A stretch of 64,000 bases of DNA from Candidatus Woesearchaeota archaeon (GCA_041650315.1 JBAZLJ010000002.1:65599-129598), one strand, 5' to 3'. Shown: positions 31,391-53,441, numbered from the stretch's first letter. Numbers and translations are program-made. Notes: generated by a model from the sequence alone, not told the origin.

Positions 31391-31391
31391 T

Positions 31392-34484: not shown

Positions 34485-34543
34485 GCCCACATTATTCTAT
34501 TTTAACATAAAGTATAAATACTCTGATTAAAATTAGGTTAACA

Positions 34544-35716: not shown

Positions 35717-35717
35717 A

Positions 35718-38007: not shown

Positions 38008-38015
38008 TATTTCAC

Positions 38016-38678: not shown

Positions 38679-41610
38679 TATTCCAATTTTCTATAAGATT
38701 GATATCATTAGATTCTAGATTATATAATTTGTAAATCTGTGAATTTAATTTATTTTCGAGAACTAATTTTTCTGTAGATTCTTTAGATTTTATAGCCAAT
38801 ATTTCATCTACCAACTTGGAGAATTTCTTTTGATCATTCAAATCAAGTGCAGGGATAGGTATTTTCATTAAATAGATTCCATCTAAATGAATTGTAAGAT
38901 TTGCTGAATTTAATATATATCTATAAAAGAAATAACTAACTACTCTCGAATTTAATATTGCTAAGATATACCTAGGGTCAAATTTTAATTCATCAAAGGA
39001 AACAATCACGCACCCACCCGAAGGCACATTTTTATCAGTATTGATTATAACACCCCTTGGATAAAGAGTTCCAAATTGAGTTATAACTACTAATTGTTTA
39101 TGCTCTAAGTAAGGGTTAGTATTGGTCTTATCTTTTGCAGAATATGCATCATAATCAAGATAAAATCGTTTTATATTCTTACCTCCTAAATAATAATATT
39201 TACCATTAGGTGTAATTTCCTTATCTAAATCAATGCCTCTATCACCATCAAGAATATTTGCTTTAAATTTGCTTATCTTTGAATAAATATCATCATAATA
39301 AAGAATCCAATACCCTTTTTCAACAGCCTCATTTATCGGCAAGAAACAGGTTTTATCTTCTCTCATAGAGTAGCATTTTATTTGATAATTATTTTTAATG
39401 CATTTCTGATAAAATATGATTATCATTTCTAAAGTAACGCCTTGGAATTGACCATATGCATCAGTAATTTCACGCAAAACTGAATTAGATTGGATGAAAT
39501 TTCGGATATAGTAATATCCCTCAGACCTAGAGATTGAATGCGGTACAATCATTGAAAATTGCCCATTTTTAGCTAATAAAAAATAAGTTCTTTCTAGAAA
39601 CATGGTCGCTAGATTGAATTGATTCTTAAATCTAGATTTGGTATTATGTGTTATAGATAAAATCTTGTATATCTCCTTATATTTCTCATTTAAATCATAA
39701 CAGACATAAGGGGGATTTCCAATAACTACATCAAATCCACCATTCAGTATAATATGCCCAAAATCGATTCTCCAATGGAATACTTGAAGCTCTGAAAATT
39801 CTTTATCAGATATTGGGGGATTCTTTCGAATAGCTTTATACTTTGCAGTTTGTTCCTTATGCGCTTTGCCATAATCAATGCCCGCTAATTTAAAATTAAT
39901 ATATTCTAAAAATGAGGGGGTTACTGCATGATAAATCGATTTTCTAATTGTCTCGATAATACTCCTTAGGTTTTCTGCTTTCAAACCATGTGTTTTTCTA
40001 TAAATTTTATACAAAATATAATATGCCTCAATATAATCATTTAATTTATAGGTTTTCAACAATTCTCTTGCTTTTTTAAGATCAGTACCTTCGCTATTTT
40101 CAGAAAAAGCGATTAAACCAGTGAATATCCCATCAACCTTCTCGGTAAGTGGCGTATTCATTGGCATTTGAACTAATTTCTCATCGAGCCAACCTACCAA
40201 ACTATTTCCCACTTTAAGATTATATTCAATATTCGGCAATGCTTTTATTTCATGTTTATTATCTTCATAATCTGAGATTAACCATAGCCAGAGTCTTAAT
40301 TTAGAAATTTCAATTGCACCAGCTAAAAAATCAACGCCATATATATTTTCAGTGATTATATCTAATTTTAATTCATAGAAATTTTTCTTTTCTTTTAATT
40401 CATATAATAGTCTTCTTTTAAGTCCCAATAATACTTCAGATGCTTTAATTAAAAATGCCCCTGAGCCACAGGCGGGATCTATTACTTTGATTTCATCAAG
40501 TATTTTTAGAGCATCTTTCATATCTTTTTTATTTTTGGATTCTATTAATTCCTCAAAAGAATGGAATTTGCCTAGCTTATCAAATAGACATGGAAGTATA
40601 GTATTATTAGAGATATAATCAGTAATAGATTCAGGCGTATAATATACCCCCTTTTTCTTTCTTTCAGTTATCTTTTTGACCGCATTTTCAGCTTCTTTTT
40701 CAAAACCTTCACTTTCCCATTCAACAACGCTTCTTTCATAGACATGACCTAATATTTCTGGAGTTAATATTTTTTCTTCATTCTCCTCTATAGCTTTAAC
40801 ATCTTCAATTATCCAATGGTAACTATTCAAAAATTCAAATATTTCTCCCCATTGTTCAGAATCTAATTTTATATCCAAATCTTGTTCTAACACATCAGGT
40901 CTGAATAAACCACCATTCAAATAAGGCACAACTATCTGATAATCGCCTATTTCAAGTAGGTTCTTCTCTTGAGAATTAAATAGATGGAACAATTTTTTAA
41001 GATTCTGTAAAAAGTTACCCTTTTTTAATAATATCTTAGTAAATAAACTTTCACCAGAAATTTTACCCCCATCATTAAATTTTATAATTCCCTTGTGGCA
41101 TAAGAAATATATAAAGAAAAACCTATCAAATATTTTCTGAGCAATTAGATATTTATGTATTGGTTCAACATCATTTTTTATATTTTGAACAAGAAGATTT
41201 CTTTTAAGCTTAAAAGCTTCATAAAATAATCCCGAGATATCTTTTGATTGGAATAAATAGTCTAAATTAGTGATATTCTTTAGTTTATCTACTTTTGAAG
41301 GATTATTTTTTGTTCGTTCAGAATAAATGAAATGTTTTGTTTCGCCAAAGCTTCTAAAAAATATTAGTTTAGTATCTATGCAGATTATACAATAACTTAA
41401 ACCTCTATCCATTAAGAAATGATCTTTGATCTCTTTAATCTTTTCTTCATCGTATACTTCATATATGACTAAAAGCTTTCGCTTATCTATTCTAAAGAAG
41501 ATTCCTTCTTTGTATTCTTCATCAGAATATTCTTTTTCTTCATTAAACCCTTTTTCTTTTAAGAATTCTATTAATCTTTTCTTTCCACCCAATATCTCTT
41601 GAACTTCCAT
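38662..41610 (-). CDS. gamma-class N6-adenine DNA methyltransferase with N-terminal domain and C-terminal target-recognition domain (Eco57I/PglX/LlaGI-methyltransferase-like)
   Basis: Motif I VIDPACGSGAFL and motif IV GNPPY. 982 aa. Confidence 0.75.
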   Translation of the reverse strand: MEVQEILGGKKRLIEFLKEKGFNEEKEYSDEEYKEGIFFRIDKRKLLVIYEVYDEEKIKEIKDHFLMDRGLSYCIICIDTKLIFFRSFGETKHFIYSERTKNNPSKVDKLKNITNLDYLFQSKDISGLFYEAFKLKRNLLVQNIKNDVEPIHKYLIAQKIFDRFFFIYFLCHKGIIKFNDGGKISGESLFTKILLKKGNFLQNLKKLFHLFNSQEKNLLEIGDYQIVVPYLNGGLFRPDVLEQDLDIKLDSEQWGEIFEFLNSYHWIIEDVKAIEENEEKILTPEILGHVYERSVVEWESEGFEKEAENAVKKITERKKKGVYYTPESITDYISNNTILPCLFDKLGKFHSFEELIESKNKKDMKDALKILDEIKVIDPACGSGAFLIKASEVLLGLKRRLLYELKEKKNFYELKLDIITENIYGVDFLAGAIEISKLRLWLWLISDYEDNKHEIKALPNIEYNLKVGNSLVGWLDEKLVQMPMNTPLTEKVDGIFTGLIAFSENSEGTDLKKARELLKTYKLNDYIEAYYILYKIYRKTHGLKAENLRSIIETIRKSIYHAVTPSFLEYINFKLAGIDYGKAHKEQTAKYKAIRKNPPISDKEFSELQVFHWRIDFGHIILNGGFDVVIGNPPYVCYDLNEKYKEIYKILSITHNTKSRFKNQFNLATMFLERTYFLLAKNGQFSMIVPHSISRSEGYYYIRNFIQSNSVLREITDAYGQFQGVTLEMIIIFYQKCIKNNYQIKCYSMREDKTCFLPINEAVEKGYWILYYDDIYSKISKFKANILDGDRGIDLDKEITPNGKYYYLGGKNIKRFYLDYDAYSAKDKTNTNPYLEHKQLVVITQFGTLYPRGVIINTDKNVPSGGCVIVSFDELKFDPRYILAILNSRVVSYFFYRYILNSANLTIHLDGIYLMKIPIPALDLNDQKKFSKLVDEILAIKSKESTEKLVLENKLNSQIYKLYNLESNDINLIENWNNEQNN

Positions 41611-44600
41611 TTATTTCTCAATAAAGCTAATTGCAAATAATGATTCTTTGTTAGTATTTAACTTTTGCTGAACCCCTAATTTTGTGAAACTATCTTTAAG
41701 TTCATTAATCCATTGTTTAACTTTAGTATTGGTTATTTCTTCTTTTAATTCAACTTTTATTTTTTTAACCACTTTTTCAGTTGTACTCCCGCAATTATGT
41801 CTAGTCAATTCAAGAGTATCTTCTAATTTTGAAATTTCAGAATACAATTCAACAAGTTTTTCAGAAGTAATATAATCTAAAATATTATTTATTAATTTAT
41901 CAACATTATCATTGAAATAATGCATCCTTAGATGTTCTTTTCTTTTATTACTTAAATACTCTTCAAATGAATTAAGTTCGTGTTTAAAAATTCCTTCGAA
42001 ATCAATTCTTCTACTTAGTTCATCAGGATTTTGATTAGACAAAATTTCCTCGTTATATGAATCAGTATTCTTATAGACAATACTTAATCCCTTTTTACCT
42101 TCGAAACTAGTATAATTCTTACCTGAGGGGATATTGACTTTAGTTAGATCTTCCTTCTTAAGATTATACTTTTTAATTGCTTTTTGCAAAAATATTAAGA
42201 TGGGTTTTGAATAATCTAAAGCAATTTCTAAATCTTTAAAATTGCCTTCTCTTAAATTACCCCTTATTTTTTGAAGTACTTCTATGTACATCCTTTTGTC
42301 TTTAGCTCTTCTTTCCGATAAAAGCTCTTTTTCTGCTTCAAACCATATCCTATATTCAACTCCTACAAATCGAATTATATCCTTAATCCTTAATTCCATT
42401 GTTTCAACTAGTTTTAGTTCAATATCTAAATCATCATCCGGTCTAAAATTCAGAATCTCAATTTCTTTTGGAGCATCAAGTCTTGTTGCTCTACCTATTC
42501 TCTGTATTATTCTTACGGGATTATAGGGGATATCAAAATTTATTACTAAATCCGCACCGCTTATATTGAATCCTTCGGAGAGTGTATCTGTAGTTATTAA
42601 TATTCGAAGTTTATCTTTAGATTCATTAAATTTCTCGATGATTGTTTGTTTATTTTCAGTATTAGAATCAACAAATCTTATCTCATCGGGATGAATTGAA
42701 TTTTTAAAGTATTCTTTAATCGCTTTCAATGTATCTTTATATTCGGTAAATATCAGTATCTTTTTACTTTTATTAGAATTGAATACTTGACTTAATTGAT
42801 TTATTTTTTGGTCATTTTTGAATAATACTCCTGATTTTTCCTTTAAGAAGGGCTCTAATTTTTTTATTTGTTCATTTATCTTAGCTACATCAATTTTTAA
42901 TTCATTGAGTATTTTTAGATTACCAGATCCTTTACCTTCTTTGATTTTATCGATTACCTCTGAAAGCTTGTTTTTATAATCTAAATCAAAGTTGATATCT
43001 ATATCATTAAAATCCGAACCAAAATTAACATCAATCTCATCTTCATATTCTTCTTCCTCTAGATATTTAGTGTTTTGTTTCTCAATGGCAGTTAATATCA
43101 TAGTGCTTTTCTTGGATAATCTCTTAAGAGTAAGGTAGTAAGAACTGATATCACTTTCAAATCTTTTATATAATATCCATTTGAAAAACCCGCCTAAACG
43201 GACACCTTTTTCAGGGTCTAATATTCTTAAATGGGCGGCAGATAAGCTTGTGATAAAGTCTACAATCCCATTCACAATGTCTTTGTATCGTAAATCTAGC
43301 TCATATTTTATTTCTTCAATCTCGGGATCCTTTATTTTAGTAATATCAACATTTGAAAATGTCTTTAATTCGTCTATATAATCGGAAGAAGTTTTGATTG
43401 TCTCCCTCGTTGATTTGACAAACATCTCTCGTTCAATTTCTTCCTGTACCTTAGACAGATTCTCTTTTTCAGAATCAGTTAATTCTTCATATTCTTTATT
43501 TTTGAATAAGTTAATCAAATCACCAAGTTCTCTAACCAAAGTATCAAAGAGCAAGTTTTGCCCATGCCTATAGAATAATTTAACCAAATCCAAAAGATTA
43601 TCTAAGCTGGTATTAATTGGTGTTGCAGTTAAGAATAATATCTTAGAATTACCATTTTCATCGATTATCTTCTTTAGATTTCTAGTTCTATAAGCATCAG
43701 GATTCCTATAGTTATGAGCTTCATCGATTATAATTAACCCATAATTCTTTGCATATTTCTCAATTTTAAACATCTCGGGTCTTTTTTGCAAATCCCCCAT
43801 AGAAACCAGATTAACCTTATCATAAATCTCAAATTCTTTCAAATATCTAGGCCATTGGTCTTCATTATGGGCTAAACCCGCTGGAACTAGAATCATTACT
43901 TTTTTATCATTATTCAAGAAATATTTGGCTATTTGAGATGCAACATATGATTTCCCTAATCCTACTGATGAAGTTAAGAAACAACCCCTATACCCCTTAC
44001 TATTAAAATTATTTAACACCCTAATGAAATCTACATATTGGAATCGAAGTAATTTTGATTTTTTAAATTCCTCAAATAAATAATCAGCGTTTAGATACTT
44101 AATCAAAATCTTCAAAAATTCTTTCGGTTCAATATACATGAATGTATTTTCTAATTCTTCTTTAAACTTTGAATTTTCAATTGCCTCTACAATTGCATCA
44201 GCAACCTTCAGTTTTTCAAAATCTTCTGTTCCTTTCTTCCAAAGACTTTCAAACCATAATTCAACATCTTCTAAATCCTTAGGTTCAGTAATAATGGTGT
44301 TCAGCTCAGTATTTCCGATTAACCCACTAGGAGTCAAATTAGAAGAACCAATTACTCCCGCATTATACTTTTGAGATAAATTCGATGTGGAAATATCCTT
44401 TAAAAAAAGATATGCTTTACTATGCAATCTTTCAGGATTTTTTTCATCACCAAAATAAACCCTTACTTTAAGTGTCTTATATTCTTTGATTAATTGATAA
44501 AATAATTTTATCGCAGGTTTAGTTTGTTCATTTATTTGAAGTTCATTAAATTTCTCTTTGAAAGCTTTGATCAGCATATCTTTAGTAGGCTTTGTAGTTT

Positions 44601-44808
44601 CATAACCCATTAAAATCTTAATTTCTTTAAGATCTTTAAGAGAATTAATAATCTCAACTAAACCTTCAATATAGAAATAACCTACTGCACATTTGAAACC
44701 TTCTGAATCTTGAGCAATAGTTTTGAGAACTTCCTTCATATTAAGAGGATTTACTTGTTTATTATCAATTATTTTCCCATATCTTAATAGATTCTCAAAA
44801 TCAGTCAT
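41611..44808 (-). CDS. fusion of PLD-family (Nuc/BfiI-like) nuclease domain and SNF2/SF2 helicase
   Basis: N-terminal HKD-type motif LHSKAYLF...GSSNLT. Helicase motifs I GLGKS, II IIIDEAHN, III LTATP, VI QRIGRATR. 1065 aa. Confidence 0.7.
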   Translation of the reverse strand: MTDFENLLRYGKIIDNKQVNPLNMKEVLKTIAQDSEGFKCAVGYFYIEGLVEIINSLKDLKEIKILMGYETTKPTKDMLIKAFKEKFNELQINEQTKPAIKLFYQLIKEYKTLKVRVYFGDEKNPERLHSKAYLFLKDISTSNLSQKYNAGVIGSSNLTPSGLIGNTELNTIITEPKDLEDVELWFESLWKKGTEDFEKLKVADAIVEAIENSKFKEELENTFMYIEPKEFLKILIKYLNADYLFEEFKKSKLLRFQYVDFIRVLNNFNSKGYRGCFLTSSVGLGKSYVASQIAKYFLNNDKKVMILVPAGLAHNEDQWPRYLKEFEIYDKVNLVSMGDLQKRPEMFKIEKYAKNYGLIIIDEAHNYRNPDAYRTRNLKKIIDENGNSKILFLTATPINTSLDNLLDLVKLFYRHGQNLLFDTLVRELGDLINLFKNKEYEELTDSEKENLSKVQEEIEREMFVKSTRETIKTSSDYIDELKTFSNVDITKIKDPEIEEIKYELDLRYKDIVNGIVDFITSLSAAHLRILDPEKGVRLGGFFKWILYKRFESDISSYYLTLKRLSKKSTMILTAIEKQNTKYLEEEEYEDEIDVNFGSDFNDIDINFDLDYKNKLSEVIDKIKEGKGSGNLKILNELKIDVAKINEQIKKLEPFLKEKSGVLFKNDQKINQLSQVFNSNKSKKILIFTEYKDTLKAIKEYFKNSIHPDEIRFVDSNTENKQTIIEKFNESKDKLRILITTDTLSEGFNISGADLVINFDIPYNPVRIIQRIGRATRLDAPKEIEILNFRPDDDLDIELKLVETMELRIKDIIRFVGVEYRIWFEAEKELLSERRAKDKRMYIEVLQKIRGNLREGNFKDLEIALDYSKPILIFLQKAIKKYNLKKEDLTKVNIPSGKNYTSFEGKKGLSIVYKNTDSYNEEILSNQNPDELSRRIDFEGIFKHELNSFEEYLSNKRKEHLRMHYFNDNVDKLINNILDYITSEKLVELYSEISKLEDTLELTRHNCGSTTEKVVKKIKVELKEEITNTKVKQWINELKDSFTKLGVQQKLNTNKESLFAISFIEK

Positions 44809-44885
44809 TTTTAGTCATCAAAATATTATTTATGGTTTACTCTTATATAGCCTCAAAGATTTTTTGAATATATAAACCTTTATTT

Positions 44886-45314
44886 TTAAAACTCATCCTT
44901 TAATCTTTTAATCAGTTCCGCCCAATCCTTATACTCCACAACCTCATCCGCAGCAGCCTTCAGGAATGCGGATTCTTTGCCTGATTCGCACATAGCGACA
45001 ACACGAAGCCCTAATGCCTTGGCATAGCCCATCTCGAAATAGACACCATTGGCTTTCTCAGTGATATCCGCTAAAATCATATCGCAATCTTTAAGTCCCG
45101 CAGTAGCTCCTTCAATCACTTCAGGAAGCGAAGTCTGGACTGCGCCCCACTTCTGCACATCCCTAAAGAAGATGAATGTAGAGTGTCCAGCAGATTCTAA
45201 AGCATCGCTAAGCTCAGTCAATTTCTTCTTCAATATTGTAGTATCCGCATCCTTAAACTTGTACGCTATGTAGATTTTCATTCTTTTGACCTCCATAAAA
45301 TCGTTTATATGCAT
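44886..45314 (-). CDS. nucleoside 2-deoxyribosyltransferase-like (SLOG-fold) protein
   Basis: MKIYIAYKF... and GVYFEMGYAKALGLRVV resemble the NDT active-site region (catalytic Glu in F-E-x-G-Y-A). Confidence 0.45.
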   Translation of the reverse strand: MHINDFMEVKRMKIYIAYKFKDADTTILKKKLTELSDALESAGHSTFIFFRDVQKWGAVQTSLPEVIEGATAGLKDCDMILADITEKANGVYFEMGYAKALGLRVVAMCESGKESAFLKAAADEVVEYKDWAELIKRLKDEF

Positions 45315-46578
45315 TCTGCACTAATCTGACCAATTCAGGCAATTCTATATCAGATAAGCTTGCTTTATTGCTCAATTGGTATTTGATGAACCTATACAAC
45401 TCTTTCTCAGTCTCTGGTATAGTATCGTGTATATGTGAATATCTGTCTAACTCCTTATATCCCTTGGCATTAAGCTCATTGTATAAAGGTGTGCCTGGGA
45501 AAGCTCTGATGACTGAAAAGCAGACTATGTCTGGCTTGATCTCTTCAGCGAACTGCAATGTCTCCTCGATTTCCTGCAAAGTCTCTGTAGGCATACCGAA
45601 CATGAAATAAGCCTTTGTCCTGATTCCATACTTCCTGCAAACTGCGATAGCCTTGCGAGAATCTTCAAGAGTAATGCCCTTATTCATCAATTTCAAAACC
45701 CTAGAACTTCCTGACTCCAAACCGAAAGAAATCTTGTAACAGCCATTTTTAGCCATCAAATCAATTGTATTTTCATTGAACCTAGCGATAACATCTGCCC
45801 TAGACAGAATCCTCCATTTCACAACCAATTTGCGCCTATTCAACTCATGGATGAATGTAAGCACTCTTTCTTCAGTATGCGCAAAATTGTTATCTATGAA
45901 ATGGAAGTCATGAATCCCGCTAGAGACAATATGCTCAATCTCATCGACAATATTCTTGATACTGCGTTCCCGCACAACAGAGCCGGTCGGTTTGGAAGCT
46001 GAACAAAATACGCAGTTATATGGGCAACCACGTGAGCCCAGAATGACCGCAGAATATTTTTCATTAACAAATAAACTTCTATCAATGAAAGGTAAAGAAT
46101 CCAATTCCATAATCAAATGCCTATCAGGGTTATGCACTATCCCAGAATCCGAAAGATAGCTTACGCCATCGACATCTCTGCCATGTGCGATAAGTTCTTT
46201 CAAAGTATCTTCGCCTTCGCCACGGACAAGAGCATACGCATTGGTTTCACGCAATACTTTTTCAGGGAATAAAGTGGCATGAATCCCACCAACAATGATT
46301 TTGATATCATCAAGTTCAGCAATAATTCCTTTAATCAGTTCGTAAGTCGGACTGAGTATAGTGAAACAAGCATAATCAGGCTTGAACGATTTAACTGAAG
46401 AAACAATCTCCGCTGGAGACAAGCCTAAAGCTTCGCCATCAATTAATTTGATAGTATGCCCCGCATTCTGTAATATAGTCGCCATGTACCCTAGACCGAT
46501 TGGCGGCACTGTGTCGTATTCTTTTTTCTTATCTAACGCATAGTCTCTCAATGGAGAGCTCACAAAGACAATTCTCAT
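45253..46578 (-). CDS. B12-binding-domain radical SAM enzyme
   Basis: N-terminal cobalamin-binding-like Rossmann domain plus CPYNCVFC (Cx3Cx2C). Confidence 0.7.
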   Translation of the reverse strand: MRIVFVSSPLRDYALDKKKEYDTVPPIGLGYMATILQNAGHTIKLIDGEALGLSPAEIVSSVKSFKPDYACFTILSPTYELIKGIIAELDDIKIIVGGIHATLFPEKVLRETNAYALVRGEGEDTLKELIAHGRDVDGVSYLSDSGIVHNPDRHLIMELDSLPFIDRSLFVNEKYSAVILGSRGCPYNCVFCSASKPTGSVVRERSIKNIVDEIEHIVSSGIHDFHFIDNNFAHTEERVLTFIHELNRRKLVVKWRILSRADVIARFNENTIDLMAKNGCYKISFGLESGSSRVLKLMNKGITLEDSRKAIAVCRKYGIRTKAYFMFGMPTETLQEIEETLQFAEEIKPDIVCFSVIRAFPGTPLYNELNAKGYKELDRYSHIHDTIPETEKELYRFIKYQLSNKASLSDIELPELVRLVQNAYKRFYGGQKNENLHSVQV

Positions 46579-46580
46579 TT

Positions 46581-47720
46581 CTAGACCCCCATATTCTTTA
46601 AGTCTATCACGATATTGTCTACCAACCTCTTTGGTTTTCTATCACCCGCTATCAGTTTTTGATTTCTTAGATAATTCAGATAAGTGGAGACTGTGCTTAG
46701 ATTCAAGCCAGTCTTCTGTGCGATATTCAAGCTAGTATTCTCGCCATCGCAATTCTGTAGAATTTTGAGCTTCAAGGTGTTCAATGGCTTGATGTGCTGC
46801 TCAAACCTCTCTGCGCCCCCTATGAACATAGTTTTAGTCTTATCCTTGACATTCTCTTCCTGCACGTATTTGTTGATTACAGCGAAATAACGCATGAAAT
46901 TGTCAGTTATGACTGGGAACAAATTAGTCGAGTTTACTTTATCCAATAATTGATCTTTGGTAAATATTTCTTCGTTATAAGAAAATTTGTCGTTCAGAGC
47001 AGTATCAAGCACATCAAGCAAATGCTCGATTTCCAGCTTCGATGGTTTCTTCTCGCTATAATGCCCTTCGATAATCTTCAAGATATGCGTTCTAGACATT
47101 TCCATTGATGGAATCAAGCCAGTAGTCGGATGGATTATTACGGGGATCTTGGTAACATAGATGACTTTTGGCGGAGTGAATTTCACATAGCTTTGCTCTA
47201 GGACTTCTGAGATTATATTATAGAATACTTTGAATCTTTCAGATGTCAGATAATGCGTAGGCGGAGCACTGCATAATTCAGGGAATAGTTCAGGCATAGC
47301 CATAGCAATGAGATAATCTGCGATGATGTAACTCAGTTTTGAGATAGAAATCTTGTCAAATGGAATATAATCCAGTTCAAAGCCTTTCTTGAGATCCCCA
47401 ATAGTTATTCGGGACAATATTTTCTGGAATACCGCCGAATATTCAGAATTCCTGAATAGCCTGTCCCACGCCTCAGAGAAAGTAAATGTGTTATAGTCCA
47501 TCTTGAGATGAGACATCAATTTCTTCAGAACATCTACATTCTCATCCAGCTTCTGCGGTTTATTCTTTACTCCATGGAAAAGCTCGTTTTCATATACATA
47601 ATTGTCCCAGACGCAAAGATAGACCTTATTGGCTCTAGCTTCATTCTTCAAATAATAGACATGATTCAGATTAGTGTAAGCTTTGGTTACTGGACTGATG
47701 TTAGTATAGACGATGTTCAT
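46581..47720 (-). CDS. hypothetical protein with C-terminal winged-helix DNA-binding domain
   Basis: C-terminal LSTVSTYLNYLRNQKLI helix-turn-helix. N-terminal 300 aa unknown. Confidence 0.4.
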   Translation of the reverse strand: MNIVYTNISPVTKAYTNLNHVYYLKNEARANKVYLCVWDNYVYENELFHGVKNKPQKLDENVDVLKKLMSHLKMDYNTFTFSEAWDRLFRNSEYSAVFQKILSRITIGDLKKGFELDYIPFDKISISKLSYIIADYLIAMAMPELFPELCSAPPTHYLTSERFKVFYNIISEVLEQSYVKFTPPKVIYVTKIPVIIHPTTGLIPSMEMSRTHILKIIEGHYSEKKPSKLEIEHLLDVLDTALNDKFSYNEEIFTKDQLLDKVNSTNLFPVITDNFMRYFAVINKYVQEENVKDKTKTMFIGGAERFEQHIKPLNTLKLKILQNCDGENTSLNIAQKTGLNLSTVSTYLNYLRNQKLIAGDRKPKRLVDNIVIDLKNMGV

Positions 47721-48340
47721 TTCAGCAAGTCCTCCAGATGCTCCGGCTGAACGTGCTTTGTATCCATGCCCGCCAAAGCAGCACCAGATAAATCTCTATC
47801 AAAATCATGCGAAACATAGACAGACTTCTCGGGCTTTACATTAGCTCTTCTTAATGCTTCAAGATAGATTGCTGGATGCGGTTTCCTGTATCCTACTTCG
47901 TAGGACATCGTGATAGTCTGGAATAAATCCTGGAGGTTATATTGTTTTAACTTCGGCATTATAGAATCGTGCGGGCAATCTGAAATTATATGCAAAGGAT
48001 ATTTTCCTGCAAGAGCTCTTAATACTTGTTCAGTTTGCGGAAATATCTCGTAATCATGGTCATTCAAGCGATAGATATCAGTCAATGCGTCTGTCAGCTT
48101 ATCATCTAAGCCATACGCTTGCTTCACTATTCTTGGCAAAGGCCATTCTATGCTATGCTTTCTATCTTTCACATAAAGCTTGATTGCTTGCGTCCATTGA
48201 TCTCGTAGTTGCTCGTTAGTATAGCTTAAACCTTCTTGTCGTAAATATTGCTGAGCCATAGCATGAGCTCTATCAGAAGTCTGTTGATTGAATGTTATAT
48301 CGAATAGCAATCCCCCAAAATCGAAAAACCAATCTGCCAT
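47717..48340 (-). CDS. HAD-superfamily hydrolase (phosphatase-like)
   Basis: Motif I FDFGGLLFD, a Lys motif (KPHP) and motif IV YVSHDFDRD. Confidence 0.55.
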   Translation of the reverse strand: MADWFFDFGGLLFDITFNQQTSDRAHAMAQQYLRQEGLSYTNEQLRDQWTQAIKLYVKDRKHSIEWPLPRIVKQAYGLDDKLTDALTDIYRLNDHDYEIFPQTEQVLRALAGKYPLHIISDCPHDSIMPKLKQYNLQDLFQTITMSYEVGYRKPHPAIYLEALRRANVKPEKSVYVSHDFDRDLSGAALAGMDTKHVQPEHLEDLLK

Positions 48341-48458
48341 TATACTGCCTGAAATTCCGTGAGGGTTTATAAAGATTTTGATGAATTCGTGAACAATGCT
48401 TTAATATAATCGTGAAGTAGTTTTGATAACGTGAGGTGGTAGCCGAAGAGGTTAACAT

Positions 48459-48494
48459 TATTTATAAATGCACTGACCCACCGGGGTCCGTGCA
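48459..48494. promoter_or_regulatory. perfect 10-bp inverted repeat ataaatgcac-N16-gtgcatttat with a GC-rich centre, upstream of the HAD/radical-SAM operon
   Basis: Seen directly; candidate operator or hairpin. Confidence 0.35.
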
Positions 48495-48525
48495 TTTATA
48501 TAGAATTATAGTAAAGGTTATCACT

Positions 48526-48732
48526 ATGTTAGATTATACCGGATTGGGTTGGAAAGTAAAATTAAGACAGAAACGAGCGAGTTATTTCTGTACATTGGCT
48601 AAAGAGATTATTGTGGGCAATACCCTGAAGCAAGGCGATGAGCTTTACTATTATCTTGTGAATGTTGAGGGAAGGAAGGGGGTACTGGTGTACTTGGATG
48701 GGAAAGAGAGAATCAATCTTAATAGTAAATAA
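48526..48732 (+). CDS. small AbrB/MazE-like (swapped-hairpin) protein candidate
   Basis: LAKEIIVGNTLKQGDELYYYLVNVEGRKGVLVYL resembles the AbrB/SpoVT pattern. Confidence 0.3.
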   Translation: MLDYTGLGWKVKLRQKRASYFCTLAKEIIVGNTLKQGDELYYYLVNVEGRKGVLVYLDGKERINLNSK

Positions 48733-48783
48733 CCATTCTTCAGAAAACAAATATTTATTAATGTAGAGTTTATCATATTTCGT

Positions 48784-49653
48784 ATGGGTTTATTGAATCG
48801 TCTTTTTGGGTCAACAGAATCTATTGCGAAAGAAATCGAAGCAGATGATGCAGTTATTAAAAAGCAATGGGATGATTATCTTAAAACAATACCCAAAAAG
48901 AAAATTATCATAGGAAAACTTAATCCTGACGCTAAACTAAATTCTAATCTTAAAGAATTAGCCTCATTATTGGCATTAGAATTGACAGATATTCGCAGTG
49001 AAGAAAAGGAAGAATCGGAACTGATAGCGGATTTGGAATCGTTAGAGCAATCTAAGAAAATAAAACGCGTAGACAAATTAGAGCAGACTTTATGCTATAT
49101 GGAGACTAGGCACGAATATATCCACAAATTGTTGGAGCAACTCGATTCTATACTGAAATCCGAAATGAATTTAGTGATAGTATTGCAGAAAGGCTCTAAG
49201 GATATAGAAAAACTGATCTCTTCATTGAAATCTCAATTAAGCCTCGAATTGAATATTCTGGATAAGATTGAGAAAAGATCTACTTTCCATGAAATGTTCT
49301 CTGCGCTTGTCAAAGGCGAGCATATAATCAAATTCATGGATTCACGAGAAAAACGTATGCTCAGCAAGATGCAGAAAGGATTAGGCAAGATATATGGCGG
49401 TGAAATCGATAAGGGAGTGACATTTGAATGGGCGATGGGCGTTTTTGAATCGGTTGAAGATTCGGTACGTGAAGCGATAGCTAACGGCCTATTAGAAATG
49501 CATCCTGATGTAGATTTCGAATTCGTAAATACTTCTCAATTTCTCGTATTGGTTAAAGGTAAAATCCAGAGCCTAAGAAAAAGACCAGTTTCAGACCAGA
49601 TGATAACTGTCTTTGTTCATCTATTTAGGGAATGGTACAACGAAAGAGAATGA
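48784..49653 (+). CDS. hypothetical protein
   Basis: ORF. Confidence 0.35.
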   Translation: MGLLNRLFGSTESIAKEIEADDAVIKKQWDDYLKTIPKKKIIIGKLNPDAKLNSNLKELASLLALELTDIRSEEKEESELIADLESLEQSKKIKRVDKLEQTLCYMETRHEYIHKLLEQLDSILKSEMNLVIVLQKGSKDIEKLISSLKSQLSLELNILDKIEKRSTFHEMFSALVKGEHIIKFMDSREKRMLSKMQKGLGKIYGGEIDKGVTFEWAMGVFESVEDSVREAIANGLLEMHPDVDFEFVNTSQFLVLVKGKIQSLRKRPVSDQMITVFVHLFREWYNERE

Positions 49654-49766
49654 TTAAAATCCCTTTCTATGTTTAAGTTAAGCGTCTATTTCTAAAATAT
49701 ATAGCAGAAATTGCCCTAATATCAATTGATTACTCTTCGGATTGGATATTAGATAGTGTTTGTTAT

Positions 49767-50342
49767 TTAGATTAAGGGGAACATATTGCTATTTGCAGTC
49801 AAACTATTGATGATGCCCAATAATTGCCCGATATAGACTATGATTCCAATCAAGCATACGTAAAGAACTACACCTAAGAATGATCTTAGATAAGAAATCT
49901 TATACTTTTTAGAAAAACCATATACATATACAAGGATAGTCAATATAGCAATAACATATCCCGGGAAAATCAAACTTGGAATTATCAATACTATCATTGA
50001 ATAAGCCAATGCCTGCATTGCACTAAGGTAATTGTCTTTCTTAGCGATTAATCTCATTATAAGATTGATTATGAACGCCTCAATCTCTAGCATGACTCCA
50101 ACCACGATTTTAGCCAATAAGACTATCACCAAAATGGCGATTAAGTCTAAATAGGATGGATTGATTAACAAACCATAAATTCCGTTCAATAAAAGACTAG
50201 CACGAAATACTAAAGTAAGCATATCAATCAATTGCTCAGAAGAGCCCCTATCTTTCTCAAATACGACTAATGGAGATTTAAGGAATTTTACTATCCTGAG
50301 AAAAGATTCTTTTTCAGTGCCGAAACCAATCCATGACTGCAT
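49767..50342 (-). CDS. hypothetical membrane protein
   Basis: ORF with 4-5 TM helices. Confidence 0.35.
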   Translation of the reverse strand: MQSWIGFGTEKESFLRIVKFLKSPLVVFEKDRGSSEQLIDMLTLVFRASLLLNGIYGLLINPSYLDLIAILVIVLLAKIVVGVMLEIEAFIINLIMRLIAKKDNYLSAMQALAYSMIVLIIPSLIFPGYVIAILTILVYVYGFSKKYKISYLRSFLGVVLYVCLIGIIVYIGQLLGIINSLTANSNMFPLI

Positions 50343-50439
50343 AGTTACTTTTAAGGTTTTTAAGCTATTTAAATATTACTAAAATCAGTTTTATTCCCAT
50401 TTGGGTTTAATACTCCGTAGCTTGCTGTGGCAGGGAGTT

Positions 50440-51354
50440 TCATTTTTTAGTTATAATGTTCAGACAAATAGTTTTCATATTGTATGCTTCGCTTTTTATC
50501 TCATTGCAAAGATCTGCGTTTCTGGTCTCGATTGCATACCATTGGATGCACAAATCCTGCTGAGTCTCCAGTGCTTCCATATAGCATGAAATATCGCACG
50601 TGACTTTCCGGCATTCTGTCCAGTCTTTAGTCACTTTGGCTTTGCAGAATCCTTTTGATTTAGGCATACCTGTATTGTCGCATACCAAAGCATCTTTTGC
50701 AATAATAGCATACTCCGTGAAGCATTCATCCGAATTAGTGGCATTGAATAGTTTGAACACTAAATCGCAAACATCACTGTTTTTCAGTTCAATGCCTACA
50801 CTTGCCACGCATCTGGCGAGCTTGCCATCACGAGACCAGCCATCTACGTCAACAATTGGTTCAACCATTAAAGCGTTACACTTATCAGTGATTTTCTTCT
50901 CGAACTCCGCTTGCCTTGCCCAAAGGTTGAATACTGATAGATTCGTTTTAGCGACAATTATTCCATTGCCGTCTTTAATTGTCAGAAGCTCAATGATATA
51001 TTCGCTTGGTCTAAGATTATGATAATATCTATTCGGTTCTATCCAATCTTTATCTTTTGCGATGAATGTTACATAAACTGGCATTGCTATATTTCCATTC
51101 TCGTCAATAATCCTGAATCCATATTCTGTTCCTTCAGGAAGCCCTTTCTGCTGAAAGAAAAACCCTTGGTCCATATCAATGGAAGTCGCTATATTTCTAT
51201 CATTGTCTAGAATGAATACTTTGACATAGGGGGATATATTTTCTGAAACGTTCAGTTCTAGTCCGGGTGGAGTCGCACGAGGGAGGAATCCGTTAAGGAA
51301 GAATATGGTGATTATTGCGAGAATGATTAATAGGAAAATATATCTCAGTTTCAT
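50440..51354 (-). CDS. secreted Cys-rich protein (possible surface/adhesion protein of the element)
   Basis: Signal-like N-terminus MKLRYIFLLIILAIITIFFL (start moved to this Met); many Cys in the C-terminal half. Confidence 0.35.
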   Translation of the reverse strand: MKLRYIFLLIILAIITIFFLNGFLPRATPPGLELNVSENISPYVKVFILDNDRNIATSIDMDQGFFFQQKGLPEGTEYGFRIIDENGNIAMPVYVTFIAKDKDWIEPNRYYHNLRPSEYIIELLTIKDGNGIIVAKTNLSVFNLWARQAEFEKKITDKCNALMVEPIVDVDGWSRDGKLARCVASVGIELKNSDVCDLVFKLFNATNSDECFTEYAIIAKDALVCDNTGMPKSKGFCKAKVTKDWTECRKVTCDISCYMEALETQQDLCIQWYAIETRNADLCNEIKSEAYNMKTICLNIITKK

Positions 51355-51471
51355 ATATGAAACGTGGATAATCGTCTTTAAAAAAGCTTGTTTTTTACAT
51401 TCATGCACCCCCATAAAGCCCCCCACAAAGCCCCGTCCTATGTTTAAGTCAAGCGTCTATTTCTATAATTC

Positions 51472-51654
51472 ATGAAGAAGCGTTATGAACTGCGACTGAC
51501 CGAATCACAGGATATTCAGTTAAGGCAGAGAGCAGAAGCATTAGGATTTTCTAAGAAAATCGATTATGTCCGTTTTATGGCATTCCTAGAACCATCTTTC
51601 ATAGAAAAGATTGACCAGATCCATAAGAAGCTGTGTGGTGAAGATGCTAGATAA
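51472..51654 (+). CDS. ribbon-helix-helix (CopG/Arc-like) protein 1
   Basis: KKRYELRLTESQDIQLRQRAEALGFSKKIDYVRFMAF. Confidence 0.4.
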   Translation: MKKRYELRLTESQDIQLRQRAEALGFSKKIDYVRFMAFLEPSFIEKIDQIHKKLCGEDAR

Positions 51655-51802
51655 GGTTCGGCTTAGGACAAGATCAAGGAGCATCAGCATTTCGCTAGAC
51701 CTTTTAGATAAAATAAGATTTGTCTGTAAAGGCAATATGTCAGTTTCAGCATTCATAAGGATGGCAATAAAGAAAGAACTGCTAAGAAGAGGGATTGCAT
51801 GA
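51611..51802 (+). CDS. ribbon-helix-helix (CopG-like) protein 2
   Basis: SISISLDLLDKI...SAFIRMAIKKEL. Confidence 0.5.
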   Translation: MTRSIRSCVVKMLDKVRLRTRSRSISISLDLLDKIRFVCKGNMSVSAFIRMAIKKELLRRGIA

Positions 51803-51984
51803 GGCGACATTATTTTTTTAAGCTGAGGATGACTCTATCTGAAAAAGAAGAATTATGCGAAATAGCTAAAGACAATGGATTTGATACAGTTAGTTCTTAT
51901 TTAAGATGGGCAATTATGAATAATCTTCCTAAAGATATCCAAGAGATAAAAAATATTCTGCAAAAAAGAGAAGAAAAAAACTAA
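51799..51984 (+). CDS. ribbon-helix-helix (CopG-like) protein 3
   Basis: MTLSEKEELCEIAKDNGFDTVSSYLRWAI. Confidence 0.45.
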   Translation: MRRHYFFKLRMTLSEKEELCEIAKDNGFDTVSSYLRWAIMNNLPKDIQEIKNILQKREEKN

Positions 51985-53228: not shown

Positions 53229-53368
53229 AAGAATAAGCTACGTTAAATACTTGAGGACCACATTGTGGCCACAACCCGTGGGTTGCACTTCAAGTAAGAA
53301 GCCTCTAGAGAGATTCCTGCTTCAAATACATCTCCCCAGAAAAGCGGGGAAATGAACTTCAAGTAAGA

Positions 53369-53441
53369 AGCCTCAGGGGAGATTTGCACTCCCGACCTCG
53401 GCCTTACCAAGGCCGCGCAATAGCTGCTATGCTACAGAGGC
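53369..53441 (-). tRNA. tRNA-Thr (anticodon GGU)
   Basis: Minus strand. Acceptor GCCTCTG/CTGAGGC with one T-T mismatch, anticodon stem CGGCC/GGCCG with loop TTGGTAA, T-arm GGGAG-TGCAAAT-CTCCC, discriminator T. Weak 3-bp D-stem, so moderate confidence. Confidence 0.55.

What the first reader, a model, noticed from the sequence alone, without database searches (positions are those of the whole stretch)
44886..48340. Cluster of HAD phosphatase, wHTH protein, B12-binding radical SAM enzyme and NDT-like protein inside the element: candidate nucleoside/nucleotide modification pathway
Four tightly packed minus-strand genes, with 4-nt and about 30-nt overlaps. They encode a HAD hydrolase (DFGG...KPHP...SHDFD), a 379-aa protein with a C-terminal winged helix, a cobalamin-domain radical SAM enzyme (CPYNCVFC) and a small protein resembling nucleoside 2-deoxyribosyltransferase (SLOG fold, FEMGYAKALG). 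The combination suggests synthesis or exchange of a modified base or nucleoside: a B12-radical-SAM methylation or rearrangement, a base swap by the NDT-like enzyme, and dephosphorylation by the HAD. On a mobile element this could hypermodify element DNA to evade restriction, or act as a nucleotide-sensing conflict system. A perfect palindrome (48459-48494) sits in its promoter region.
Basis: inference. Interest (0 to 1): 0.65.

Follow-up and report, generated by a model that had tools for sequence, protein, structure and literature searches.

The report
Conserved nucleotide-modifying operon on archaeal conjugative elements
The four genes are real and form a conserved, undescribed operon carried by small conjugative elements of DPANN archaea, and its "winged-helix protein" is a tyrosyl-tRNA-synthetase-like protein that has lost its ATP motifs; what the operon makes is still unknown.

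Summary
The four minus-strand genes exist as described. They encode an atypical HAD-fold hydrolase, a 379-aa protein, a B12-domain radical SAM enzyme and a MilB/DNPH1/NDT-fold protein with its catalytic Glu. New here: the 379-aa protein is a TyrRS/TrpRS-fold pseudo-synthetase (HIGH degenerate, KMSKS loop deleted) fused to an ArsR-like winged helix. Its family has about 135 representatives among 1.84 billion; all named members are archaeal.

The cassette keeps the same gene order in about 17 distinct loci from Woese-, Pace- and Nanoarchaeota and Methanococcoides. It usually lies within 10 kb of a closely related VirB4 or an integrase. Here it sits in a 24.5-kb element integrated in tRNA-Thr.

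Different restriction-modification systems follow it in different loci, so they look like cargo in a hot spot, not partners. A tandem TTCAC-box operator upstream is conserved; the reported palindrome is imperfect and not conserved. Some loci add a methyltransferase, an S51 peptidase, a DHH phosphoesterase or a second radical SAM enzyme.

Best guess, at low confidence: a self-regulated pathway that turns a nucleotide into a modified base or nucleoside used in conflict. DNA hypermodification, nucleotide salvage and peptide modification remain open. No known system matches.

The parts
47717..48340 (-). HAD-fold hydrolase, 207 aa, first gene of the operon. Motif I is atypical (D-F-G-G-L, no Asp+2). 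Motifs II (S), III (RKPH) and IV (SHDxxD/E) are kept.
   Evidence: Pfam HAD_2 E 5.6e-18. NCBIfam TIGR02253 E 1.2e-25 and YjjG-type nucleotidase E 2.8e-16, both below their cut-offs. The 22-sequence alignment shows [FL]D[YF]G[GE]L in nearly all sequences, and none has Asp at +2.
46581..47720 (-). 379-aa pseudo-TyrRS/TrpRS (class Ic aaRS fold, residues about 1-300; HIGH degenerate, KMSKS loop deleted) fused to a C-terminal ArsR/Csa3-like winged helix (about 315-375). Proposed ligand-sensing regulator of the operon.
   Evidence: AF2 pLDDT 89.4. The top 50 Foldseek PDB hits are all TrpRS/TyrRS-fold entries (one is an engineered protein on that fold), E 5.5e-8 to 3e-6, about 310 aligned columns, TM 0.34-0.58. 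The family profile hits human TyrRS at E about 0.09 as the only non-HTH match. wHTH E 1.1e-5. The family has only 135 representatives among 1.84e9.
45253..46578 (-). Cobalamin-domain (class B type) radical SAM enzyme, 441 aa, with a CPYNCVFC cluster motif.
   Evidence: Pfam B12-binding E 1.6e-21 and Radical_SAM E 6.3e-26. It is below the cut-off of every NCBIfam equivalog (BchE, HpnJ, QCMT, PhpK, BzaD and others). Best PDB match is 9CCB, which is QCMT, at E 1.5e-25; OxsB scores E 5.9e-13.
44886..45278 (-). NDT/DNPH1/MilB-fold protein, 130 aa (the ORF is open back to 45314). The catalytic Glu lies in GVYFEMG.
   Evidence: PF05014 E 3.9e-8, above the cut-off. DNPH1/Rcl and MilB/BcmB are the best PDB sequence hits, with the Glu aligned. 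AF2 pLDDT 92.5. Foldseek gives MilB TM 0.82, rmsd 2.5-2.8 A. The Glu is invariant in the 16 intact homologues (the 17th row is N-masked).
48387..48416 (-). Tandem TTCAC(R)A boxes spaced 23 nt apart and overlapping TATA-like sequence, 47-76 nt upstream of the HAD start. Proposed operator/promoter of the operon.
   Evidence: Single match in the window against 0.02 expected. The same pattern lies upstream of the operon in L002, L006, L008 and L018. Both boxes are conserved in a 17-locus alignment although the proteins are only 40-50% identical.
48457..48506 (.). Imperfect palindrome (23-nt arms, 87% complementary, 4-nt loop) with two facing TATA-like boxes (TTTATAAA / TTTATATA), lying between the operon and the divergent small gene.
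   Evidence: Homologous loci have no comparable palindrome.
48526..48732 (+). Divergent small ORF, 68 aa from ATG 48526 (98 aa from GTG 48436). It occupies the position held in most other loci by a conserved 85-100-aa protein ('S85'). Possibly a regulator; it looks AbrB/SpoVT-like by eye only.
   Evidence: ORF. No Pfam or PHROG hit. A homologue is found only in L018. S85 is present in about 20 other loci but not in the window.
28899..53382 (.). The carrying element: a roughly 24.5-kb integrative conjugative element bounded by a 15-nt direct repeat (28899-28913 and 53368-82, the latter overlapping the 3' end of tRNA-Thr). It holds the integrase (51981-53228), a VirB4/TraG-like ATPase (31392-34484), a T4SS pilin-like gene (30482-31390), ArdA (37031-37534) and the PLD-SNF2 plus type IIG-like methylase cargo (38662-44808).

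Best explanation
The four genes are one operon. It is a conserved accessory module of a family of small integrative conjugative elements of DPANN archaea, also found in Methanococcoides.

I propose a self-regulated pathway that converts a nucleotide into a free modified base or nucleoside:
1. The cobalamin-type radical SAM enzyme does the chemically hard step on a nucleoside monophosphate, either a C-methylation or a rearrangement (inferred).
2. The MilB/DNPH1-like enzyme cleaves or exchanges the N-glycosidic bond through its conserved Glu (inferred from fold and residue).
3. The HAD-fold enzyme handles the phosphate (inferred; its active site is atypical).
4. The 379-aa protein is a TyrRS-fold protein that has lost both ATP-binding signatures and gained a winged helix. 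It binds a pathway ligand and represses the operon at the tandem TTCAC boxes, in the way BirA and NadR combine an enzyme-like domain with an HTH (inferred).

The setting is a mobile element, next to a cargo hot spot filled with restriction-modification systems, with tailoring enzymes added in some loci. That makes the product most likely a conflict molecule (antimetabolite, antiviral or anti-defence) rather than a housekeeping metabolite.

Shown: the gene content, the folds, the conserved residues, the conserved order, the link to the element and the conserved operator-like DNA. Inferred: the substrate, the product, each enzyme's reaction and the regulatory role.
For: - Order: HAD, 379-aa, rSAM, NDT-like is kept in about 17 distinct loci across four archaeal lineages, with start/stop overlaps.
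- NDT-like protein: its best structural relatives are MilB and BcmB, the CMP/hmCMP N-glycosidases of the mildiomycin and bacimethrin pathways, together with DNPH1. The Glu is invariant.
- rSAM: it has the full class B architecture and is distantly related to OxsB, the one B12-rSAM known to act on deoxynucleotides together with a phosphohydrolase.
- Sister locus L041: a distant relative of the 379-aa protein again sits beside a B12-rSAM, a different phosphohydrolase (CYTH) and the same small S85 protein, next to a type III R-M system and Shedu. In L039 the sister protein overlaps an HD hydrolase.
- Tailoring genes lie inside the operon in some loci: a SAM methyltransferase plus Peptidase_S51 (L009), a DHH/DHHA1 phosphoesterase plus a different PF05014 protein (L018), and a second B12-rSAM (L008). 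This is typical of small-molecule pathways.
- The 379-aa protein lacks HIGH and KMSKS but keeps the fold and carries a wHTH. It is the only DNA-binding domain present in every locus, and a tandem-box element is conserved upstream of the operon.
- The cassette is missing near one related VirB4 plus integrase (L033), which fits an accessory rather than essential transfer function.
Against: - No substrate or product is known. The rSAM merges into the generic B12-rSAM cloud at 30-37% identity, so its chemistry cannot be assigned.
- Its closest solved relative, QCMT, methylates a protein, not a nucleotide.
- The HAD lacks the Asp+2 general acid, so simple dephosphorylation is uncertain.
- The aaRS-fold assignment rests on an AF2 model and Foldseek with moderate TM scores of 0.34-0.58. 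Sequence support is not significant (E about 0.09; hhalign probability 0.3).
- Binding of the wHTH to the TTCAC boxes is untested. A second candidate regulator (S85, or the 68-aa ORF here) is also present.
- The cassette is present in nearly every locus recovered, but those loci were found through the 379-aa protein, so this says nothing about how common it is. The independent VirB4-based sample has n = 1.
- Sister-family members in ribosomal-protein operons hint at a more general cellular role.
Confidence: 0.35

Rival explanations
1. Hypermodification of element DNA (or of tRNA). The rSAM and the NDT-fold enzyme would install or swap in a modified base, the wHTH-aaRS-like protein would target the machinery to nucleic acid, and the modification would protect the transferred element from recipient restriction.
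For: The module is on a conjugative element that also carries ArdA. It sits next to R-M systems in most loci. The 379-aa protein keeps the whole aaRS fold, including the helical domain that binds tRNA in real synthetases, plus a DNA-binding wHTH.
Against: No hallmark of known DNA hypermodification systems is present in the cassette: no DpdA/TGT, no hmdU kinase, no aGPT-Pplase and no glycosyltransferase. The element encodes no polymerase to incorporate modified dNTPs. All characterised NDT-fold enzymes act on free nucleosides or nucleotides. A HAD nucleotidase would drain rather than feed a dNTP pool. The flanking R-M systems vary in type and bring their own methylases.
Confidence: 0.15
2. A nucleotide-salvage or dNTP-supply module. 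DPANN hosts lack de novo nucleotide synthesis, so the element would carry NDT-type deoxyribosyl transfer, a nucleotidase and a radical enzyme to rebalance or supply precursors for its own replication, as many phages do.
For: The host is a Woesearchaeota genome of about 1 Mb. NDT is a classical salvage enzyme; that rests on my knowledge of Lactobacillus NDT. The HAD resembles YjjG-type nucleotidases. Sister-family members lie next to HD hydrolases in housekeeping operons.
Against: Salvage does not need a B12-radical SAM enzyme or a pseudo-aaRS regulator. The NDT-like protein is structurally nearest to base-releasing glycosidases rather than transferases. The tailoring genes (methyltransferase, S51 peptidase) do not fit salvage. 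Methanococcoides, which has full biosynthesis, carries the cassette too.
Confidence: 0.12
3. Amino-acid, peptide or protein chemistry. The rSAM would C-methylate a protein, peptide or amino acid, as QCMT, TsrM and RiPP methylases do. The TyrRS-like protein would bind an aromatic amino acid or an aminoacyl-tRNA, as cyclodipeptide synthases do. The NDT-like and HAD enzymes would be accessory, for example clearing 5'-deoxyadenosine or building an aminoacyl-nucleoside.
For: The best solved relative of the rSAM is QCMT, and NCBIfam also hits RiPP methylases (ApyD E 1.6e-34) and TsrM. The TyrRS/TrpRS fold without HIGH or KMSKS recalls cyclodipeptide synthases (my knowledge). A Peptidase_S51 is inserted in L009. 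A small conserved protein, S85, accompanies the cassette.
Against: S85 is absent from the window and from L018, so it cannot be an obligatory substrate. The rSAM similarity is generic across class B enzymes. The NDT-like enzyme and the nucleotide-type phosphohydrolases (HAD, CYTH, HD, DHH) recur, which points to nucleotides.
Confidence: 0.1

Closest known systems
Oxetanocin A genes OxsB (B12-dependent radical SAM) and OxsA (HD phosphohydrolase) on Bacillus megaterium plasmid pOXT1
   Same: A cobalamin-domain radical SAM enzyme is paired with a phosphohydrolase on a mobile replicon. OxsB is a detectable full-length relative (E 5.9e-13). Sister loci pair the system with HD or CYTH hydrolases.
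   Different: The similarity to OxsB is weaker than to QCMT or AprD4. The hydrolase here is HAD-fold, not HD. OxsAB has no NDT-fold enzyme and no aaRS-like regulator. That OxsAB acts on dAMP/dADP/dATP is from my knowledge, not tested here.
MilA/MilB (mildiomycin) and BcmA/BcmB (bacimethrin): modification at the nucleotide level followed by N-glycosidase release of the modified base
   Same: The NDT-like protein models best onto MilB (TM 0.82), and also onto BcmB and DNPH1, with the nucleophilic Glu conserved. The logic of 'modify the NMP, then free the base' fits the gene set.
   Different: The modifying enzyme there is ThyA-like, not a radical SAM enzyme. Sequence identity is only about 20%. 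The N-terminal phosphate-binding loop differs (AYKF instead of a Gly/Ser-rich loop). Those pathways are bacterial.
BirA and NadR: an enzyme-like domain fused to a (w)HTH, acting as a ligand-dependent repressor
   Same: A synthetase/nucleotidyltransferase-type fold is fused to a DNA-binding domain and encoded beside the pathway it could control. A conserved repeat element lies upstream of the operon.
   Different: The order is reversed (HTH at the C-terminus) and the fold is different (class Ic aaRS). The catalytic signatures are lost. DNA binding is untested. The BirA/NadR properties are from my knowledge.
TyrRS/TrpRS (class Ic aminoacyl-tRNA synthetases) and their motif-less relatives, the cyclodipeptide synthases
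   Same: The fold covers the Rossmann domain and the helical domain. The D of the 'ADLHA' strand aligns with invariant D39.
   Different: No Pfam tRNA-synt_1b hit. HIGH is replaced (first His becomes Asn) and the KMSKS loop is about 8 residues shorter. An extra wHTH is present. No canonical synthetase is retrieved by an exhaustive profile search.

Membership tests
HAD-superfamily phosphatase | Motif I DxDx(T/V), with the Asp+2 general acid/base | tested here: not met
   The window has D-F-G-G-L. All 22 family members read D-[YF]-[GE]-[GE]-[LV] at motif I.
HAD-superfamily phosphatase | HAD fold with nucleophile Asp, motif II Ser/Thr, motif III Lys and motif IV acidic pair | tested here: met
   Pfam HAD_2 66.1 bits against a cut-off of 23.8. 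The D, the S in (I/V)S(N/D), RKP and SH(D/E)xx(D/E) are essentially conserved (one row differs at two motifs).
Cobalamin-dependent (class B) radical SAM enzyme | N-terminal B12-binding Rossmann domain plus CxxxCxxC radical SAM core | tested here: met
   PF02310 76.8 bits and PF04055 92 bits. CPYNCVFC is in the translation.
Cobalamin-dependent (class B) radical SAM enzyme | Membership of a functionally defined subfamily (BchE, HpnJ, QCMT, PhpK, BzaD, TsrM, AprD4 and others) | tested here: not met
   All 25 NCBIfam models listed (of 37 hits) are far below their cut-offs. The best is BchE at 171.9 bits against 481.
Cobalamin-dependent (class B) radical SAM enzyme | Actual cobalamin binding and methyl transfer | not testable with these tools
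   Needs reconstitution and assay.
Nucleoside 2-deoxyribosyltransferase / DNPH1 / MilB superfamily | PF05014 match and fold | tested here: met
   33.9 bits against a cut-off of 28.8. AF2 pLDDT 92.5. Foldseek gives MilB TM 0.82, and NDT and DNPH1 TM 0.62-0.76.
Nucleoside 2-deoxyribosyltransferase / DNPH1 / MilB superfamily | Catalytic nucleophile Glu | tested here: met
   GVYFEMG aligns with GVGYELG of Rcl/DNPH1. The Glu is invariant in the 16 intact homologues in both subfamilies.
Nucleoside 2-deoxyribosyltransferase / DNPH1 / MilB superfamily | Transferase versus hydrolase activity, and nucleoside versus nucleotide substrate | tested here: inconclusive
   The nearest structures are NMP glycosidases, but the N-terminal loop (AYKF) and the -6 position (Ala/Gly) match neither NDT nor DNPH1 (my reading).
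Class Ic aminoacyl-tRNA synthetase (TyrRS/TrpRS) | Rossmann catalytic fold plus helical anticodon-binding domain | tested here: met
   Foldseek probability 1.0, E 5.5e-8, about 310 aligned columns, TM 0.34-0.58.
Class Ic aminoacyl-tRNA synthetase (TyrRS/TrpRS) | HIGH and KMSKS signature motifs | tested here: not met
   The HIGH position reads TPN / YTNxNH. The KMSKS loop is about 8 residues shorter, and 'EMS' aligns with the 'DDS' that follows KMSKS. These alignments are not statistically significant on their own.
Class Ic aminoacyl-tRNA synthetase (TyrRS/TrpRS) | Sequence-level family membership | tested here: not met
   No Pfam or NCBIfam synthetase hit. hhalign against MjTyrRS gives probability 0.3. 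Human TyrRS scores only E about 0.09.
Known anti-phage defence systems (PADLOC-DB 2.0) | A match of the cassette proteins to system-specific models | tested here: not met
   There is only a generic rSAM hit to candidate PDC-M51A (68.8 bits), wHTH-only hits to Csa3/CasR and a weak TIR-effector hit (14.2 bits) for the NDT-like protein. The HAD has no hit.
Known DNA hypermodification systems (Dpd 7-deazaguanine; 5-hmdU-derived thymidine hypermodification) | DpdA/TGT transglycosylase, or hmdU kinase plus aGPT-Pplase type transferase | tested here: not met
   None found among the four proteins or their neighbours by Pfam, NCBIfam or PADLOC. Only the downstream SNF2 helicase resembles DpdE or DrmD, and weakly.
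Integrative conjugative element (the carrier) | Tyrosine integrase next to a tRNA, flanking direct repeats, and VirB4-type ATPase plus pilin | tested here: met
   The transfer function itself is not testable here.

The most novel reading that the evidence does not exclude
The cassette may be a new kind of mobile-element weapon or signal. In this reading an ICE-encoded cobalamin/radical-SAM pathway makes a C-alkylated or rearranged nucleobase or nucleoside that acts between DPANN symbionts, their hosts and rival elements. The molecule would be sensed by a previously unrecognised class of one-component regulators built from a disabled tyrosyl-tRNA synthetase fused to a winged helix. A variant of the same reading is that the NDT-fold enzyme installs the product into nucleic acid, which would be a new base-exchange route.
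Probability: 0.2. Interest if true: 0.85.

Novelty: new variant of a known kind. Interest (0 to 1): 0.62.

Why it matters
Conjugative elements of archaea, and of DPANN archaea in particular, are barely characterised. This analysis defines a conserved module that such elements carry across Woese-, Pace- and Nanoarchaeota and into a methanogen.

The module contains a protein family with no annotation, a TyrRS-fold protein without ATP motifs fused to a winged helix. That would be a new example of a synthetase recycled as a regulator or ligand binder.

If the operon makes a modified nucleoside or base, it would extend B12-radical-SAM nucleotide chemistry, currently known essentially from OxsB, to archaea and to mobile-element conflict. 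It could also yield a new antimetabolite.

If instead it modifies DNA or tRNA, it would be a new hypermodification route.

Either way, it gives a defined four-gene target, with a candidate operator, for expression and LC-MS work.

Tried and rejected
- Known defence system: PADLOC gives only generic hits for the four genes. Rejected.
- Phage module: PHROGs gives weak or generic hits. There is no relative of the 379-aa protein in IMG/VR, INPHARED phages or PLSDB plasmids.
- Functional coupling with the downstream PLD-SNF2 plus methylase genes: rejected. Other loci carry MutH plus a C5 methylase, type I, type III, or Eco47II plus a C5 methylase. L014 has nothing between the cassette and VirB4. 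GC content also differs, 0.35-0.39 against 0.27-0.30.
- The reported palindrome as the conserved operator: rejected. Tandem TTCAC boxes were found instead.
- Riboswitch or other known RNA in the leader: nothing in Rfam.
- The 379-aa protein as a true synthetase or a resistant synthetase copy: rejected, because the signature motifs are lost.
- A housekeeping cofactor pathway such as BzaD-type B12 lower-ligand synthesis: considered because of a BzaD hit. The score is far below the cut-off and the context is always a mobile element.
- A ThyA link, by analogy with MilA/BcmA: one ThyA lies 4.6 kb away on the opposite strand in L026 only. Not a component.
- Sequence-level proof of the aaRS relationship failed.
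- A VirB4-seeded metagenome census gave only one informative locus.
- Literature searches found no description of this gene set.

Full report
**Observation**

The likely real start of the last ORF is Met13 at 45278, as in the NCBI and Logan gene calls.

- The first junction is a 4-nt overlap.
- The second junction is a 2-nt gap.
- The third junction is a 26-62-nt overlap, depending on the start used.

Pfam confirms HAD_2 (E 5.6e-18), B12-binding plus Radical_SAM (E 1.6e-21 and 6.3e-26, with CPYNCVFC) and Nuc_deoxyrib_tr (E 3.9e-8, above the gathering score). It gives only sub-threshold winged-helix hits at the C-terminus of the 379-aa protein.

The 'perfect palindrome' is imperfect. Its arms are 48457-48479 and 48484-48506, 87% complementary.

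**Where it sits**

The window comes from a 1.007-Mb contig of a Candidatus Woesearchaeota MAG. The four proteins are deposited there only as 'HAD family hydrolase', 'hypothetical protein', 'radical SAM protein' and 'nucleoside 2-deoxyribosyltransferase'.

- A tyrosine integrase (51981-53228) abuts tRNA-Thr (53369-53441).
- A 15-nt direct repeat, AAGCCTCAGGGGAGA, overlaps the tRNA 3' end at 53368 and recurs at 28899.
- Between the repeats lie a T4SS pilin-like gene, a VirB4/TraG-like ATPase, ArdA, a PLD-SNF2 helicase, an Eco57I/MmeI-like methylase and the cassette.

So the cassette is part of a roughly 24.5-kb integrative conjugative element.

**The 379-aa protein**

A word-indexed search of 5.8 billion proteins found 79 relatives. 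Every named one is archaeal (Woese-, Pace- and Nanoarchaeota, Methanococcoides), and most are unannotated (a few are called 'transcriptional regulator').

From the alignment I suspected a class I synthetase pattern. An AlphaFold2 model built on 34 homologues has pLDDT 89.4. Foldseek against the PDB returns only tryptophanyl/tyrosyl-tRNA-synthetase-fold entries among the top 50 (one is an engineered protein on that fold), with E 5.5e-8 to 3e-6, about 310 aligned columns and TM 0.34-0.58.

Sequence methods do not reach significance:
- The family profile against the PDB hits only wHTH proteins.
- hhalign against MjTyrRS gives probability 0.3.
- A broader 64-sequence profile raises the ArsR-type wHTH to E 1.1e-5. 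Its only non-HTH matches are human TyrRS at E about 0.09.

The corresponding alignments are not significant but are colinear:
- Invariant D39 falls on the Asp of the 'ADLHA' strand.
- The first His of HIGH falls on an Asn.
- The conserved 'EMS + helix' falls on the 'DDSPEEI' element that follows KMSKS. That leaves a KMSKS loop about 8 residues shorter.

I therefore call the protein a pseudo-TyrRS fused to a winged helix. It is unlikely to adenylate an amino acid.

An exhaustive HMM scan of 1.84 billion representatives found only 135 proteins at E <= 1e-3 and no canonical synthetase. About half of them form a sister family of 390-480 aa with the same architecture.

**The other three proteins**

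- **HAD.** The nucleophile Asp, the motif II Ser, the motif III Lys and the motif IV acids are essentially kept throughout the family. Motif I reads D-[YF]-[GE]-[GE]-[LV] in all 22 family members, so the Asp+2 general acid of HAD phosphatases is absent. It is a HAD-fold enzyme, but not a safe 'phosphatase'.
- **rSAM.** It has the class B architecture but stays far below the cut-off of every functional subfamily in NCBIfam. Its best solved relatives are 9CCB (E 1.5e-25), AprD4, TsrM and OxsB. 9CCB is QCMT, the methyl-coenzyme M reductase glutamine C-methyltransferase (PMC12931638; NCBIfam TIGR04014). Beyond the cassette orthologues (43-89% identity) its homologues merge into the generic B12-rSAM cloud at 30-37%. 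Its chemistry cannot be read from homology.
- **NDT-like protein.** It aligns its GVYFEMG with the catalytic GVGYELG of Rcl/DNPH1. The Glu is invariant in the 16 intact homologues across two subfamilies. The model (pLDDT 92.5) superposes best on MilB (TM 0.82, rmsd 2.5-2.8 A), then on NDTs, DNPH1 and BcmB. Its nearest relatives are thus nucleotide N-glycosidases that free a base. The family has only about 51 clusters.

**Conservation**

Neighbourhood look-ups and a scan of 185,579 species genomes, analysed with my own ORF and phmmer script, show the order HAD, 379-aa, rSAM, NDT-like in about 17 distinct loci. The loci come from Woese-, Pace- and Nanoarchaeota, unclassified archaea and Methanococcoides sp. 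SA1.

A VirB4 closely related to the window's (E down to 1e-298) and/or a related integrase lies within 10 kb in most loci with enough flank.

What follows the NDT-like gene differs every time:
- PLD-SNF2 plus a type IIG-like methylase (the window).
- MutH-like plus a C5 methylase (L002).
- A type I system (L003, L015).
- DUF2779 plus an N6/N4 methylase plus ResIII (L006).
- Eco47II plus a C5 methylase (L012).
- Nothing before VirB4 (L014).

Together with the GC step (0.35-0.39 in the cassette, 0.27-0.30 in the R-M genes), this makes the R-M systems cargo of a hot spot rather than partners.

One related VirB4 plus integrase locus (L033) has no cassette within 10 kb. The module is therefore probably accessory, though n = 1.

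**Extra components and variants**

A small protein of 85-100 aa with no Pfam match ('S85') lies divergently upstream of the HAD gene, or just after the NDT-like gene, in about 20 loci. The window lacks it. A 68-aa ORF (48526-48732) sits in its place, and only L018 has a homologue.

Some loci insert tailoring-type genes in the operon, mostly between the rSAM and NDT-like genes:
- L009: a class I SAM methyltransferase plus Peptidase_S51.
- L018: a DHH/DHHA1 phosphoesterase plus a different PF05014 protein.
- L008: a second B12-rSAM and three unknown genes in front of the HAD gene, behind the same promoter boxes.

Sister-family contexts:
- L041: the sister protein sits divergently beside a B12-rSAM, a CYTH phosphohydrolase and an S85 homologue (E 4.8e-23), followed by a type III R-M system and Shedu SduA.
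- L039/L040: it overlaps an HD hydrolase inside the L11...L1-L10-L12 ribosomal cluster.
- L042, L023 and L024: it is chromosomal, without the partners.

The recurring core is thus the pseudo-aaRS-wHTH plus a B12-rSAM plus some phosphohydrolase plus S85.

**Cis-elements**

Aligning the 140 nt upstream of the HAD gene from 17 loci shows two conserved boxes, ACTTCAC(A/G)ATTATATA and GTTCACAAAT..ATCAAAA, spaced 23 nt apart. The encoded proteins are only 40-50% identical.

In the window the pattern TTCAYRA-N16-TTCAYRA occurs once (48387-48416, minus strand) against 0.02 expected. It recurs at the equivalent position in other loci.

Homologous loci have no comparable palindrome. Rfam finds nothing in the leader.

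**Interpretation**

The best-supported reading is a self-regulated operon that derivatises a nucleotide:
1. The radical SAM enzyme modifies a nucleotide.
2. A MilB/DNPH1-type enzyme cleaves or exchanges the glycosidic bond.
3. A HAD-fold enzyme handles the phosphate.
4. The pseudo-TyrRS-wHTH senses a ligand and controls the promoter.

The precedents for the logic are OxsB/OxsA (a B12-rSAM plus a phosphohydrolase acting on deoxyadenosine phosphates, plasmid-borne), MilA/MilB and BcmA/BcmB (modify the NMP, then free the base), and BirA/NadR (an enzyme-like domain plus an HTH). These rest on my knowledge of those systems. None is a homologous system.

I give this 0.35. Every enzymatic step and the regulatory role are inferred. 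Only gene content, folds, residues, synteny, the link to the element and the conserved DNA boxes are shown.

The rivals are DNA or tRNA hypermodification (0.15), nucleotide salvage for a host without de novo synthesis (0.12) and peptide, protein or aminoacyl chemistry (0.10). The rest is 'something else'.

**Comparison and novelty**

No PADLOC, Pfam, NCBIfam or PHROG model describes the set. Literature searches returned nothing on it. Relatives of the 379-aa protein are absent from the viral, phage and plasmid collections searched.

The components are known folds. The combination, the pseudo-synthetase-wHTH family and the setting on archaeal conjugative elements are new.

I rate it a new variant of a known kind (nucleotide-derivatising gene clusters on mobile DNA), with a real chance (about 0.2) that it is something without precedent.

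Noticed in passing
window 28899-28913 and 53368-53382: A 15-nt direct repeat, AAGCCTCAGGGGAGA, overlaps the 3' end of tRNA-Thr and recurs 24.5 kb away. It delimits a small integrative conjugative element in a Woesearchaeota genome.
   Followed up: partly
window 37531-44808 (minus strand): A very low-GC block (0.27-0.30) holds a PLD(HKD)-SNF2 helicase (best PADLOC model 'HKD+Snf2 C3a139', E 1.5e-42; weaker DrmD, BrxH and DpdE hits), an Eco57I/MmeI-type methylase with a TaqI_C domain, and two unknown ORFs of 220 and 158 aa. It looks like a two-to-four-gene defence or R-M cargo unit, possibly DISARM-like.
   Followed up: no
window 37031-37534 (+): An ArdA antirestriction protein (Pfam E 7.9e-27) is present on an archaeal (DPANN) conjugative element.
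   Followed up: no
L002 (Methanococcoides sp. SA1) versus the window and L011, L012, L014: The VirB4 of this element family is very similar (phmmer E about 1e-290) between DPANN archaea and a Methanosarcinales genome, and both carry the cassette. This suggests one element family crossing phylum boundaries between symbionts and potential hosts, or alternatively a binning artefact.
   Followed up: partly
L006 6937-7203, L008 23-280, L041 4543-4851 and about 20 other loci: 'S85' is a conserved protein of 85-100 aa with no Pfam match (motif ...SY.ES.QAW...LK.E...FPQLKEKRS.F.Y...). It accompanies both the main cassette and the CYTH variant. It is absent from the window.
   Followed up: partly
L041 1-8245: A variant cassette: a sister pseudo-aaRS-wHTH lies divergent from a B12-rSAM, a CYTH domain protein and S85, directly followed by a type III R-M system and a Shedu SduA gene.
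   Followed up: partly
L039 7001-8895 and L040 4097-5991: A sister-family pseudo-aaRS-wHTH gene overlaps an HD-domain hydrolase gene and is inserted between ribosomal protein L11 and the L1-L10-L12 genes. This is a housekeeping context that the conflict model does not explain.
   Followed up: no
L002, L003, L006, L009-L013, L017, L020, L025: about 40 nt before the HAD start: A conserved leader, CC..AAGGGAAAAAGAGTTCTTGATAA, lies just upstream of the start codon in 11 loci. It is absent from the window. It could be a ribosome-binding region or a regulatory RNA or protein site.
   Followed up: no
L023 3995-5188 and L024 1843-3216: A conserved protein of 397-457 aa with no Pfam match lies directly upstream of a solitary paralogue of the 379-aa protein, in chromosomal-looking contigs binned as Methanosarcinales.
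   Followed up: no
window 28890-28898 (minus strand): A single TTCACAATT box abuts the left att repeat. Single boxes are not enriched in the window (7 found, 5 expected), so this may be chance.
   Followed up: partly
window 6924-9212 and 59564-61120: Two FlaI/VirB11-type secretion ATPase genes lie outside the element, one of them an unusually long 762 aa. A low-GC stretch (0.295) lies at 2001-4000, next to tRNA-Phe.
   Followed up: no
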